Below are positions 48,905-49,921 of a DNA stretch of 64,000 nt, in pieces. Within the stretch, counting starts at the first letter, position 1. Each line of letters starts with the position of its first letter. A model generated the notes under the pieces. It saw nothing but the letters and a program-made list of their open reading frames with translations, did not search any database and was not told where the DNA came from. This DNA is from an uncultured Bacilli bacterium (GTDB taxonomy: Bacteria; Bacillota_I; Bacilli_A; RF39; UBA660), in the NCBI GenBank assembly GCA_947627895.1, contig CANQXV010000001.1:3987-67986 (forward strand). The letters are read 5' to 3'. A program made the position numbers and the translations under genes.

Positions 48905-49921
48905 CTAATTTCCCGAGTTTGCCGCCAAACATGAATGATCACAAATACCATCATTATTGGTATCACAGTTAATATCACAACTACCACTGGCATTAATGTC
49001 AATATTTAAATCCGGGTACTTATCATTATTAAGATCTTTATTAAGATCCACTACTCCATCACCATCTAAATCAATATTAGTATCCGGCCAATTATCATTA
49101 TCCGAATCACAGTTGACATCACAAATGCCATTACCATCTAAATCTTGATTTAGAGCATTTTTTATTGTTCCGTCACTTTGTAATACGTTAAAAGCTTTAT
49201 TTCTGTTTCCATCAAAGTCAATATTTTGATCAGGTTTATTATCATTATTGGTATCACAGTTAACATCACAAACGCCATCGTTATCCAAATCTATATTTAC
49301 AACTTTATTAACTTTATTTTGGTTATAAATACAATTATAATCACATAAATTATCTTTATTATTATCACAGTTAACATCACAGATACCATCATTATTGGTA
49401 TCAATATTTAAATCTGGATAGCCATCGTTATCAACATCAATATTTAACTCGCCATTATTAGCATCTGGAACCTTGGAAGGATCTTTAACATTATCCCAAT
49501 CAATATCAGGTTTAGTTGCATCATTATCGTAACTTTCATTAGGTGGCATTGGAATAATACCACCATTATAACTAGTATCACAATCATTATAAGGGTTCGT
49601 TAAACAATTAAAACATATTTTAAAGTCAGCACTAAAATCCACAAACATTGAGAACATATTAAAAATCGCACTAACTATAGTTGGAATAAAGAAAATAACT
49701 ATCCCAATAACTAATTTTTTTAATAAACTTGCTCCTTTTTTACTAATAATTTTATCATCACTACTCATAACTGCTTGAGCAAAATTAACAATCCCAATGA
49801 TAATAATTATTAAAGGTACAACAATTTTTAAAACAAAAAATATTAACCCTATTGTATACCAAATTGAAGCCGTCTTATAACAAAAATTGATATCTCCTAA
49901 TAAAGGTTCTACAAAACTCAT
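48905..49921 (-). CDS. Membrane protein with C-terminal tandem Asp-rich calcium-binding-like repeats (thrombospondin type 3 / dockerin-like DxDxDG-x-CDxNCD)
   Basis: It has N-terminal TM helices, then at least six repeats such as IDVDNDGYPDLNIDTNNDGICDVNCDNNKD, IDLDNDGVCDVNCDTNNDNKPD and QDLDGNGICDVNCDSDNDNWPD. Confidence 0.6.
   Translation of the reverse strand: MSFVEPLLGDINFCYKTASIWYTIGLIFFVLKIVVPLIIIIIGIVNFAQAVMSSDDKIISKKGASLLKKLVIGIVIFFIPTIVSAIFNMFSMFVDFSADFKICFNCLTNPYNDCDTSYNGGIIPMPPNESYDNDATKPDIDWDNVKDPSKVPDANNGELNIDVDNDGYPDLNIDTNNDGICDVNCDNNKDNLCDYNCIYNQNKVNKVVNIDLDNDGVCDVNCDTNNDNKPDQNIDFDGNRNKAFNVLQSDGTIKNALNQDLDGNGICDVNCDSDNDNWPDTNIDLDGDGVVDLNKDLNNDKYPDLNIDINASGSCDINCDTNNDGICDHSCLAANSGN
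48917..49456 (-). repeat. Tandem in-frame coding repeats (about 45-60 nt units) encoding the Asp/Cys-rich Ca-loop motifs
   Basis: DNA units such as cacagttaacatcacaaa(c/t)gccat recur at about 48.97, 49.11, 49.25 and 49.37 kb. Confidence 0.6.

What the first reader, a model, noticed from the sequence alone, without database searches (positions are those of the whole stretch)
48905..49921. Thrombospondin type 3-like, dockerin-like calcium-binding repeats on a bacterial membrane protein
At least six tandem units of the form DxDxDGxCDxNCDxxxD recur in the C-terminal 180 residues. Each unit contains two Cys and multiple Asp or Asn, for example NIDLDNDGVCDVNCDTNNDNKPD. Corresponding repeats are visible at the DNA level. 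The pattern matches eukaryotic TSP3 Ca-binding repeats (DxDxDGxxDxxDNCP) and the loop grammar of dockerins. A cohesin-like module is encoded about 2 kb away in the giant protein. A cohesin-dockerin-type interaction between the two loci is conceivable but speculative.
Basis: partly seen in the sequence, partly recalled or inferred. Interest (0 to 1): 0.6.

Follow-up and report, generated by a model that had tools for sequence, protein, structure and literature searches.

The report
Calcium-repeat tail on a T4SS pilin
A small membrane protein in a gut bacterium's type IV secretion gene cluster carries an outward-facing tail of about fourteen 12-residue aspartate-rich units that look like calcium-binding loops; the tail belongs to a real but unnamed repeat family, and it matches neither the thrombospondin nor the dockerin models.

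Summary
ORF 48905..49921 (-), 338 aa, ends in a strongly periodic Asp/Asn/Cys-rich array. The true unit is 12 residues, N-[I/C]-D-x-[D/N]-x-D-G-x-[x/C]-D-x, present in about 14 copies. Six C-x3-C pairs sit at unit junctions.

The units carry the generic Dx[DN]xDG calcium-loop motif, and topology puts them outside the cell. No TSP_3 or Dockerin_1 match appears at permissive thresholds, in the protein, its fragments or its homologues. Repeat profiles find no thrombospondin, COMP or dockerin among PDB sequences. AlphaFold2 predicts helix-free stacked coils with no Foldseek match in the PDB.

The repeat is its own unannotated family: 368 clusters, mostly in surface proteins of uncultured gut Bacilli, often next to a membrane anchor.

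Residues 1-118 are a two-helix module homologous to Pfam PF18895 (T4SS_pilin). The gene sits in a conserved operon beside VirB4, VirD4 and a cell-wall hydrolase.

The nearby cohesin is real, but the giant protein has its own dockerin-like pair. Nothing links it to this tail.

Best reading: a calcium-stiffened, cysteine-stapled extracellular stalk grafted onto a T4SS pilin-family protein. Calcium binding, disulfides and function are inferred, not shown.

The parts
48905..49921 (-). Whole gene: 338-aa protein = pilin-family 2-TM module + linker + 12-residue repeat array
   Evidence: ORF list and translation. Identical protein on two public contigs.
49568..49921 (-). aa 1-118: two-TM helical hairpin module of the T4SS_pilin (PF18895) family. 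Four conserved extracytoplasmic Cys: C14, C103, C106, C114.
   Evidence: 41% identical to the downstream paralogue. 44% identical, E 7e-35, to P0340, which passes the PF18895 cut-off at 27.0 vs 26.6 bits. 20 of 23 family members give sub-threshold PF18895 hits. AF2 helices 13-52, 56-93 and 97-108. Conserved Cys shown.
49445..49567 (-). aa 119-159: Pro/Asp/Asn-rich linker, low model confidence
   Evidence: pLDDT 42-53. Composition.
48920..49444 (-). aa 160-334: about 14 units of N-[I/C]-D-x-[D/N]-x-D-G-x-[x/C]-D-x. Five canonical Dx[DN]xDG motifs and six C-x3-C pairs. Predicted stack of helix-free coils.
   Evidence: Period 12, z = 10. Motif counts against shuffles. AF2 pLDDT 89-96 for aa 211-330, with beta-bridges every 12 residues at the positions flanking the Asn.
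49151..49225 (-). aa 233-257: non-repeat insert (NIDFDGNRNKAFNVLQSDGTIKNAL), conserved in the wider repeat family. Predicted small hairpin.
   Evidence: The same block NIDYxGNRKxxFNVxxxDGxxxNxxNQD is present in the homologues. Strand/bridge residues 244-254 in the model.
48433..48813 (-). Downstream paralogue, 126 aa: the same 2-TM pilin-family module without a repeat tail
   Evidence: BLASTP E 1e-21. PF18895 15.7 bits and NF045889 22.4 bits, both below cut-off.
49933..52355 (-). Upstream operon genes g331 (ParA/MinD-like), g150, g170, g79, g65: small membrane proteins with near-invariant N-terminal motifs
   Evidence: Gene order conserved with the pilin-family genes in 46-52 of the 87 loci held. 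N-terminal motifs. Weak CbiA hit, E 0.015.
55500..57725 (-). VirD4-type coupling protein of the same cluster
   Evidence: PF02534 E 1.4e-51. NF045973, 295.6 bits against a cut-off of 250.
58507..60900 (-). M23 peptidase + lysozyme-like cell-wall hydrolase (VirB1-type role)
   Evidence: PF01551 E 9e-29 and PF00959 E 6e-5.
60939..63294 (-). VirB4-type ATPase split into two ORFs, 188 aa + 595 aa
   Evidence: NF045975 (Mbov_0397 family ICE conjugal transfer ATPase): E 5e-14 over profile positions 89-276 and E 3.1e-102 over positions 294-891.

Best explanation
The gene encodes a member of the T4SS_pilin (PF18895, VirB2-like) family of two-helix membrane proteins. It belongs to a chromosomal, monoderm-type type IV secretion cluster of an uncultured gut Bacilli lineage.

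Its extracellular C-terminus has been extended by domain shuffling with about 14 copies of a 12-residue Asp/Asn-rich unit taken from a lineage-specific family of surface-protein repeats.

Proposed mechanism, step by step:
1. The hairpin inserts with both ends outside and the Lys-rich loop inside.
2. The very acidic tail (net charge -30) is exported unfolded.
3. Outside, each unit binds about one Ca2+ through its Dx[DN]xDG loop plus the Asp four residues later.
4. The units stack into a regular, helix-free coil held by an Asn/hydrophobic ladder.
5. C-x3-C pairs at six unit junctions staple neighbouring units.
6. The result is a short rigid acidic rod, roughly 3-7 nm (my own geometric estimate). 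It projects from the membrane at the secretion apparatus and acts as a wall-penetrating stalk or contact element.

Shown here: the repeat and its statistics, the homology of both modules, the gene neighbourhood, and the domain company and membrane-proximal position of the repeat in other proteins.

Inferred: topology, from charge bias and signal-peptide-bearing relatives. Predicted only: the stacked-coil fold. Not shown: Ca2+ binding, disulfides and any role in secretion or contact.
For: Repeat statistics.

The repeat is a real family, not a composition artefact:
- 643 homologues in the first search, and 368 clusters at 50% identity with E<=1e-3, of which 179 reach 1e-10.
- The homologues share a conserved non-repeat insert.
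- Cys at unit position 10 and at position 2 of the next unit co-occur: 383 both, 738 neither, 9 discordant.
- 984 of 994 Cys within repeat spans lie in C-x3-C pairs. Odd numbers of pairs per protein are common (58 of 119), so each pair is self-contained.

Extracellular, stalk-like context:
- Partner domains are Flg_new, Big_2, MucBP, L-type lectin, LRR, surface Ig-like and transglutaminase-like.
- The array lies within 60 residues of a predicted TM helix in 63 of 139 cluster representatives. It either follows an N-terminal anchor or precedes a C-terminal one.

Fold: AF2 gives pLDDT 93-98 (fragment model) and 89-96 (full-length model) over aa ~206-334. There are no helices. Paired beta-bridges recur every 12 residues at the two positions flanking the Asn.

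Topology: charge bias, signal-peptide-bearing relatives, and four conserved Cys all on the outer side.

Pilin module: 44% identity, E 7e-35, to a protein passing the PF18895 cut-off. 20 of 23 relatives hit PF18895, 13 of 23 hit NF045889 and 7 of 23 hit NF045849, all below cut-off.

T4SS neighbourhood: VirB4, VirD4 and M23/lysozyme hydrolase. The operon is conserved across dozens of gut Bacilli genomes.

The tail is an add-on. Orthologues in the same operon slot have no tail, a Pro/Glu-rich tail or a PF14262 domain. Only the window and L010 carry the repeat tail.
Against: - Ca2+ binding is inferred from a linear motif only. About half of the units are degenerate at the Gly or at one Asp (layout).
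- The organism is a gut anaerobe, and disulfide formation outside such cells is not assured. The C-x3-C pairs could be metal ligands instead.
- The AF2 fold has no counterpart in the PDB by Foldseek. AF2 tends to over-regularise repeats. Coordinates could not be inspected, so 12 versus 24 residues per turn is undecided.
- The window protein's own N-terminal module does not reach PF18895 at E<=1. Membership rests on homology to members that pass by less than about 1 bit.
- Unlike most family members, the tail here carries no distal domain, so 'stalk' may be the wrong word for this protein.
- No experimental or expression data exist.
Confidence: 0.55

Rival explanations
1. The array is a genuine, very divergent homologue of thrombospondin type 3 repeats of the kind found in bacterial OmpA-like proteins. 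It would fold as an irregular calcium 'wire' rather than a stacked coil.
For: - Shared grammar: tandem Dx[DN]xDG-like loops, extracellular, Cys-containing, no helices.
- The only PDB sequences touched by the full-family profile A2 contain bacterial repeats of the DTDGDGIPD kind, which I recognise (not tested) as TSP3-type: BamM 9n2d_D at E 0.4 and OmpA-family 5wtl at E 1.8. Both are non-significant.
Against: - No PF02412 match at E<=1 or E<=10 in the protein, its fragments or 32 relatives.
- The repeat-only profile A5 finds no TSP, COMP or OmpA-TSP3 chain at E<=10.
- The period is a uniform 12 residues, not the longer type 3 motifs (from memory).
- Cysteines form self-contained C-x3-C pairs, not pairs about 20 residues apart as in 1UX6 (PMC6526912).
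- AF2 predicts a regular bridge ladder.
- Foldseek gives no PDB hit.
Confidence: 0.15
2. The tail is a dockerin-type module that docks onto the cohesin of the neighbouring 2499-aa M26 protease, tethering the protease to the membrane protein.
For: - The cohesin is real: PF00963, E 1.5e-11, with PDB cohesin 5g5d at E 0.0056. It lies 2.1 kb away.
- Single units resemble the dockerin Ca loop. hhalign aligns one 23-column stretch to the giant protein's own dockerin-like loop, probability 43%.
Against: - No Dockerin_1 match at E<=10 on fragments, while the same tool detects the giant protein's own dockerin-like pair (20.4 bits with its insert, 31.2 bits with the insert removed, cut-off 22.9).
- No helices follow the loops.
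- There are about 14 loops instead of 2, plus Cys pairs.
- MurC lies between the two genes on the other strand.
- In syntenic genomes the giant gene is absent from that position.
- There is no co-occurrence of repeat tail and cohesin in the fetched loci.
Confidence: 0.03
3. The tail is a compositionally driven, largely disordered acidic spacer in an AT-rich genome (Asn, Asp, Ile and Lys codons), with no specific ion binding. Its periodicity would be a relic of repeat expansion.
For: - The window is about 30% G+C.
- The tail is 44% Asp+Asn.
- The first three to four units and the linker have lower model confidence.
- There is a weak hit to the Ser-Asp stalk region of ClfB, NF033845 E 3.5e-5, far below its cut-off.
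Against: - Position-specific conservation across 368 clusters.
- Invariant Asn, Asp and Gly columns.
- Near-perfect covariation of the two Cys positions.
- DNA repeats are only 60-90% identical, so the array has been maintained rather than recently expanded.
- pLDDT is above 90 over about 120 residues.
Confidence: 0.1
4. The tail is itself the working end: a Ca-dependent adhesin or receptor-binding fibre on a pilin subunit, used for mating-pair or target-cell contact. It would not be a passive stalk.
For: - It has no distal domain, unlike most family members.
- Paralogous pilin-family proteins in related loci carry many different extracellular domains. This resembles the variable VirB2 arrays discussed for Patescibacteria and Bartonella (PMC12102498, PMC12857230).
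Against: - Elsewhere the same repeat sits between an anchor and a functional domain, which fits a spacer.
- No ligand-binding feature is evident.
- The fused architecture is rare, seen only in the window and L010.
Confidence: 0.15

Closest known systems
Thrombospondin type 3 repeats (Pfam TSP_3, PF02412; TSP-1/2, COMP; bacterial OmpA-like proteins)
   Same: Extracellular tandem Asp-rich loops built on DxDxDG. Cysteine-containing, no helices, presumably loaded with many Ca2+ ions.
   Different: - No profile or sequence match.
- Uniform 12-residue period.
- An invariant Asn flanked by hydrophobic residues, predicted to form a bridge ladder.
- Local C-x3-C pairs, against a disulfide about 20 residues apart in 1UX6 (PMC6526912).
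- No NCP / N-x-x-Q signature (read from the sequence; the TSP3 consensus is from memory).
Dockerin type I (PF00404) and EF-hand-type loops
   Same: A single unit has the 12-residue D-x-[DN]-x-D-G-x-x-D loop grammar. There are weak EF-hand and FG-GAP loop hits, E 0.1-0.4.
   Different: No flanking helices. About 14 contiguous loops instead of two loop-helix segments. Cys pairs. No Dockerin_1 hit. A true dockerin-like pair is present elsewhere, in the giant protein.
RTX nonapeptide beta-roll (GGxGxDxUx). This is a 'works-like' comparison from general knowledge.
   Same: Short tandem Ca-binding repeats that are acidic, are exported unfolded, and are thought to fold outside the cell into a regular parallel stack.
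   Different: Different motif and period (9 vs 12). No Gly-rich turn. Has Cys staples. Not a T1SS substrate. No sequence similarity was seen in any search.
T4SS_pilin family (PF18895), Mycoplasma ICE Mbov_0395/0396 proteins, and VirB2-like pilin arrays of Patescibacteria
   Same: The N-terminal module is a two-helix hairpin. It is homologous to PF18895 members. It has multiple variable paralogues next to virB4 and virD4, like the arrays described in PMC12102498.
   Different: This module carries four conserved extracytoplasmic Cys and, uniquely here and in L010, a 180-430-residue repeat tail. The host is a Bacillota lineage, for which reviews state that VirB2 homologues are not found (PMC12857230).
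Wall-spanning stalk regions of Gram-positive surface proteins (e.g. the Ser-Asp repeats of Clf/Sdr MSCRAMMs)
   Same: Acidic repetitive segment placed between the membrane or wall anchor and the functional domains. Weak ClfB SD-region hit.
   Different: Structured 12-residue units rather than dipeptides. TM anchors rather than LPXTG (no LPXTG was found). Predicted Ca dependence.

Membership tests
Thrombospondin type 3 repeat (PF02412) | Match to the Pfam TSP_3 profile | tested here: not met
   Absent at E<=1 for the protein and 17 homologues. Absent at E<=10 for six isolated repeat fragments. Absent at E<=0.01 for 15 more family members. No positive control for TSP_3 was run.
Thrombospondin type 3 repeat (PF02412) | Sequence similarity to solved TSP/COMP type 3 regions | tested here: not met
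   phmmer and two family profiles against all PDB sequences return no TSP or COMP chain at E<=10. Only non-significant bacterial hits appear: 9n2d_D at E 0.4 and 5wtl at E 1.8.
Thrombospondin type 3 repeat (PF02412) | Disulfides linking cysteines of neighbouring motifs, about 20 residues apart | tested here: not met
   Cys occur as self-contained C-x3-C pairs: 984 of 994 Cys. Odd pair counts are common. The comparison value C856-C876 comes from PMC6526912.
Thrombospondin type 3 repeat (PF02412) | Fold: irregular wire around a Ca core, similar to 1UX6 / 1YO8 / 3FBY | tested here: inconclusive
Thrombospondin type 3 repeat (PF02412) | Binds many Ca2+ ions | not testable with these tools
   Needs ITC, 45Ca overlay or a structure.
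Dockerin type I (PF00404) | Match to the Dockerin_1 profile | tested here: not met
   No hit at E<=10. The same tool detects the giant protein's dockerin-like pair.
Dockerin type I (PF00404) | Two duplicated segments, each a Ca loop followed by a helix | tested here: not met
   About 14 contiguous loops. DSSP shows no helix at aa 160-334, except one 3-residue turn at 204-206.
Dockerin type I (PF00404) | Cognate cohesin partner co-occurring with it | tested here: inconclusive
   A cohesin is present 2.1 kb away, but it comes with its own dockerin-like pair. There is no tail/cohesin co-occurrence in the fetched loci. Binding was not tested.
Dx[DN]xDG calcium-binding motif class (Rigden et al., PMC3123361) | Linear motif Dx[DN]xDG with a further acidic ligand nearby | tested here: met
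   Five exact motifs, each followed by Asp at +9, against a shuffle mean of 0.24. About seven further degenerate units.
Dx[DN]xDG calcium-binding motif class (Rigden et al., PMC3123361) | Actual Ca2+ coordination | not testable with these tools
   Inference only.
T4SS_pilin (PF18895), for aa 1-118 | Profile match at the gathering threshold | tested here: not met
   The window module gives no hit at E<=1. The paralogue scores 15.7 bits against 26.6.
T4SS_pilin (PF18895), for aa 1-118 | Homology to members that pass the threshold | tested here: met
   P0340, P0350 and P0356 pass (27.0-27.7 bits against 26.6). P0340 is 44% identical over 108 aa, E 7e-35. The family profile finds 12 PF18895-annotated proteins at E 1e-39 to 1e-17.
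T4SS_pilin (PF18895), for aa 1-118 | Two-helix hairpin and a neighbourhood of T4SS genes | tested here: met
   AF2 helices 13-52 and 56-93. VirB4, VirD4 and hydrolase lie within 14 kb. VirB4 is within 10 kb in about 20 related loci.
RTX beta-roll repeats | Nonapeptide GGxGxDxUx | tested here: not met
   Period is 12, not 9. No GGxGxD in the sequence. No RTX family appeared in the Pfam or NCBIfam output.

The most novel reading that the evidence does not exclude
The 12-residue unit defines a previously undescribed fold: a Ca2+-filled, Asn-laddered, C-x3-C-stapled mini-solenoid. Here it forms a built-in rigid shaft on a VirB2-like subunit.

On this reading, a chromosomal T4SS of gut Bacillota would build a pilus-like or spike-like surface structure from pilin-family proteins with extracellular extensions. 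Current reviews say that Gram-positive T4SSs lack VirB2 homologues, except in Patescibacteria.
Probability: 0.15. Interest if true: 0.8.

Novelty: new variant of a known kind. Interest (0 to 1): 0.5.

Why it matters
It would add a new structural class to the calcium-binding Dx[DN]xDG repeats. The class is compact and regular, and it occurs in several hundred surface-protein clusters of uncultured gut Bacilli. No Pfam or NCBIfam model currently covers it, and every named member is labelled 'hypothetical'.

It also flags a lineage of Bacillota whose chromosomal type IV secretion clusters carry arrays of VirB2-like (PF18895) proteins decorated with varied extracellular domains. Recent reviews list Patescibacteria as the only monoderm exception, so this bears on whether Gram-positive T4SSs can build surface appendages.

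For annotation, it shows that 'TSP3-like' or 'dockerin-like' labels based on the DxDxDG grammar alone would be wrong here.

Tried and rejected
- Pfam and NCBIfam scans of the whole protein, of fragments and of 32 relatives found no TSP_3, Dockerin_1, Excalibur or RTX. The best repeat hit is DUF6802 at 18.8 bits against a cut-off of 27, plus chance-level EF-hand, FG-GAP and LNR loop hits.
- phmmer of the tail against PDB sequences found nothing at E<=10.
- Family profiles against the PDB gave only non-significant hits: BamM, OmpA-family, filamin and cellulase.
- Foldseek of the tail model against the PDB gave 0 hits. The full-length model gave only E>5 helical-hairpin noise.
- Tandem Repeats Finder sees only short fragments. 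The repeat is too diverged at the DNA level.
- A Cys4 metal-site (quartet) reading of the cysteines was considered and set aside, because 58 of 119 homologues have an odd number of C-x3-C pairs.
- I checked whether the 247-aa neighbour is another pilin-family paralogue. It is not. It is a lipoprotein with a C-terminal TM helix.
- I looked for a second copy of the repeat in the window. There is none. The only other signal is weak matches to the N-rich/dockerin-like region of the giant protein.
- Literature searches for a described 12-residue Ca solenoid or for this family found nothing relevant.
- Public names for family members are only 'hypothetical protein'.
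Full report
**1. What is there**

The finding coincides with one ORF, 48905..49921 on the minus strand (338 aa). It ends at a genuine TAG stop, followed by a 91-bp spacer with an RBS before the next gene. The identical protein is encoded on two independent public assemblies.

The protein has three parts:
- Residues 1-118 are hydrophobic and helical.
- Residues 119-159 are a Pro/Asp/Asn-rich linker.
- Residues 160-334 are the repeat array: 22% Asp, 22% Asn, 6.7% Cys.

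**2. Is the repeat real?**

Residue autocorrelation in the tail peaks at lag 12 (z = 10 against 1000 shuffles of the same composition). A sub-period of 4 reflects an Asp at every fourth position.

Laid out in register, the unit is N-[I/C]-D-x-[D/N]-x-D-G-x-[x/C]-D-x. It occurs about 14 times and is interrupted once by a 25-residue non-repeat insert at aa 233-257.

| Motif | Observed | Shuffle mean | Shuffle max |
|---|---|---|---|
| D.[DN].[DN]G..D | 6 | 0.10 | 3 |
| C[DN].[NS]C | 6 | 0.08 | 2 |
| Dx[DN]xDG (canonical) | 5 | 0.24 | 3 (of 20,000) |

In the whole window, over six frames, the canonical motif occurs only seven times. Five are here and two are in the giant protein's dockerin-like loops.

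DNA-level repeats are present but diverged, at 61-90% identity to the reference copies. Tandem Repeats Finder finds only short fragments. The array is therefore old and maintained, not a recent expansion.

Its 'six two-Cys units' are the six junctions between 12-residue units that carry a C-x3-C pair.

**3.

Pfam TSP_3 and Dockerin_1 do not match:
- not at E<=1 for the protein or 17 homologues;
- not at E<=10 for six isolated repeat fragments;
- not at E<=0.01 for 15 further family members.

The best Pfam hit to the array is DUF6802, at 18.8 bits against a cut-off of 27. Chance-level EF-hand, FG-GAP and LNR loop hits follow.

The tool is able to see dockerin-type loops in this same genome. It finds a Cohesin domain (45.1 bits) and a dockerin-like pair in the neighbouring giant protein. 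No positive control for TSP_3 was run.

Searches against all PDB sequences give the same answer:
- The tail alone returns nothing at E<=10.
- The full-family profile A2 returns only non-significant hits: BamM (E 0.4) and OmpA-family 5wtl (E 1.8).
- The repeat-only profile A5 returns only filamin and cellulase noise.

No thrombospondin, COMP or dockerin chain appears in any of them.

hhalign of the repeat profile against the giant protein's own dockerin-like segment aligns just one 23-column loop, at 43% probability. The resemblance is to the generic Dx[DN]xDG calcium loop (PMC3123361), not to either family.

**4. The repeat is a family of its own**

A word-indexed search found 643 homologues. 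The best share only the tail. They reproduce its non-repeat insert, NIDYxGNRKxxFNVxxxDGxxxNxxNQD.

An exhaustive phmmer search of 1.84 billion cluster representatives found 368 clusters at E<=1e-3 and 179 at E<=1e-10. These include proteins of up to 3471 aa.

Partner domains are those of bacterial surface proteins: Flg_new, Big_2, MucBP, L-type lectin, LRR, surface Ig-like and transglutaminase-like.

In 63 of 139 representatives the array lies within 60 residues of a predicted TM helix. It either follows an N-terminal anchor or precedes a C-terminal one in proteins that also have a signal peptide. That is the position of a membrane-proximal stalk.

The few members that carry a name in public sources are called 'hypothetical protein'.

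**5. The cysteines**

I anchored 1130 units in 119 homologues. Cys at unit position 10 and Cys at position 2 of the next unit co-occur almost perfectly: 383 both, 738 neither, 9 discordant. When absent they are replaced together, mostly by Pro/Ala ... Ile.

Within repeat spans, 984 of 994 Cys lie in C-x3-C pairs. Furthermore, 58 of 119 proteins have an odd number of pairs. Each pair is therefore self-contained: a local staple, or a local two-thiolate site.

This differs from thrombospondin, where a cited type 3 disulfide joins Cys 856 and Cys 876 (PMC6526912).

**6. Predicted structure**

AlphaFold2 on aa 150-338 with 70 homologues gives pLDDT 93-98 for aa ~206-334. On the full protein, blocks of ten residues over aa 211-330 average 89-96, and aa 161-200 average 74-82.

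There are no helices in the array. Paired beta-bridges recur every 12 residues, exactly at the two positions flanking the invariant Asn (x12-N1-x2). That suggests a regular stack of coils with an Asn/hydrophobic ladder.

I could not inspect coordinates, so 12 versus 24 residues per turn is open.

**7. The membrane module and topology**

Residues 1-113 are 41% identical to the product of the next gene, 48433..48813. The family alignment shows invariant C14, C103 and C106, and near-invariant C114.

Some members have a cleavable signal peptide and large Cys-rich domains before the first TM helix. That places both termini outside.

In the window protein the inter-helix loop has net charge +3, the N-terminus -1 and the tail -30.

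Link to PF18895 (T4SS_pilin):
- 20 of 23 family members give sub-threshold PF18895 hits.
- 13 of 23 hit NF045889 and 7 of 23 hit NF045849, the Mycoplasma ICE pilin-like families, also below cut-off.
- A family profile retrieves 12 proteins with precomputed PF18895 annotation at E 1e-39 to 1e-17.
- P0340 passes the Pfam cut-off (27.0 vs 26.6 bits). It is 44% identical to window aa 11-117, E 7e-35.

**8. Genomic context**

The gene is sixth in a minus-strand operon: g65, g79, g170, g150, g331, this gene, then the paralogue.

Upstream on the same strand lie:
- a VirD4-type coupling protein (NF045973, 295.6 bits against a cut-off of 250);
- an M23/lysozyme wall hydrolase;
- a split VirB4 (NF045975, E 3e-102);
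- a weak VirB3-like ORF.

A scan of one genome per species found 79 loci, almost all from uncultured gut 'Bacilli' MAGs. Adding the eight loci fetched earlier gives 87 loci in the tblastn table. In that table:
- the five-gene set plus pilin genes is conserved in 46-52 loci;
- VirB4 lies within 10 kb in about 20.

There are 181 distinct ORFs carrying the 2-TM module, with very varied N- or C-terminal extracellular extensions.

In the orthologous operon slot the tail is absent, Pro/Glu-rich, or a PF14262 domain. Only the window and L010 (434 aa) carry the repeat tail. The tail is thus a rare graft from the surface-protein repeat family onto a pilin-family protein.

Reviews state that Gram-positive T4SSs lack VirB2 homologues, Patescibacteria excepted (PMC12857230, PMC12102498). 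That makes the context itself noteworthy.

**9. The cohesin idea**

The cohesin is real (PDB cohesin 5g5d at E 0.0056). However, the same giant M26 protease has its own split dockerin-like pair. That pair scores 20.4 bits as it stands and 31.2 bits with its N/S-rich insert removed, against a cut-off of 22.9.

The giant gene is missing from the equivalent position in syntenic genomes. The only cohesin homologue in the fetched loci (L077) is not accompanied by a repeat tail. Nothing supports a specific interaction.

**10. Verdict**

The best-supported reading is a Ca2+-stiffened, Cys-stapled extracellular stalk or contact element fused to a T4SS pilin-family membrane protein. It works more like an RTX roll or a wall-spanning stalk than like a dockerin. 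It is not a member of TSP_3.

- Shown: the repeat, both homologies, the context, and the domain company.
- Inferred: topology.
- Predicted only: the fold.
- Untested: Ca2+ binding, disulfides and function.

I rate it a new variant of a known kind (Dx[DN]xDG calcium repeats) in an unusual host protein, of moderate interest.

Noticed in passing
window 49933..52355 (-); related loci L003-L086: The four small membrane proteins upstream start with near-invariant N-terminal motifs ahead of a TM helix. g65 and g79 begin MKEATGELN. g170 and g150 begin M[KR]E[SA][IV][SG]..[IL]FQ. The motifs are conserved across 30-44 loci. None has a Pfam or NCBIfam hit. With a ParA/MinD-like 331-aa protein they form a conserved operon with the pilin-family genes. 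The motifs look like a leader or recognition signal of an undescribed pilin-like set.
   Followed up: partly
window 55500..63592 (-): A monoderm-type T4SS gene set: VirB3-like ORF, split VirB4, M23/lysozyme hydrolase, lipoprotein and VirD4. It is interleaved with housekeeping genes (M29 aminopeptidase, DedA/VTT, MurC) and is syntenic in several species-level genomes. That suggests a chromosomal, vertically inherited system rather than a recent ICE. No relaxase or integrase search was done.
   Followed up: partly
loci L009-L087 (genome-contig scan): 181 distinct ORFs in the 87 loci held carry the PF18895-like 2-TM module. Many have large Cys-rich N-terminal domains or long non-repeat C-terminal extensions. 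Such VirB2-like arrays are described for Patescibacteria but are said to be absent from other Gram-positive T4SSs (PMC12857230, PMC12102498).
   Followed up: partly
window 39350..46849 (-): The 2499-aa M26 (ZmpA/B/C-like) protease has several N-terminal features ahead of the protease region. In order: a signal peptide, a Cohesin domain (aa 34-173, 46331..46750), two TM helices, and a dockerin-like pair (aa 245-356, 45782..46117) split by an Asn/Ser-rich insert. This is a cohesin and a dockerin-like module in one membrane-anchored protease.
   Followed up: partly
L005-L008 (contexts of P0070 and P0003): The main carriers of the repeat are 410-560-aa proteins: a cytoplasmic N-domain, one TM helix, the repeats, and a C-terminal beta-rich domain. 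They sit in a conserved four-gene operon (about 355 aa, 501 aa, a DUF2357 protein, then the repeat protein), beside or between cell-wall/division genes (PBP transpeptidase, MraY, RsmH, FtsL/DivIC).
   Followed up: no
window 60939..63294 (-): VirB4 is split into a 188-aa and a 595-aa ORF that together cover the NF045975 profile (positions 89-276 and 294-891). The same 188-aa + VirB4 pairing recurs in about 20 related loci. It is therefore a conserved split, not a sequencing frameshift.
   Followed up: partly
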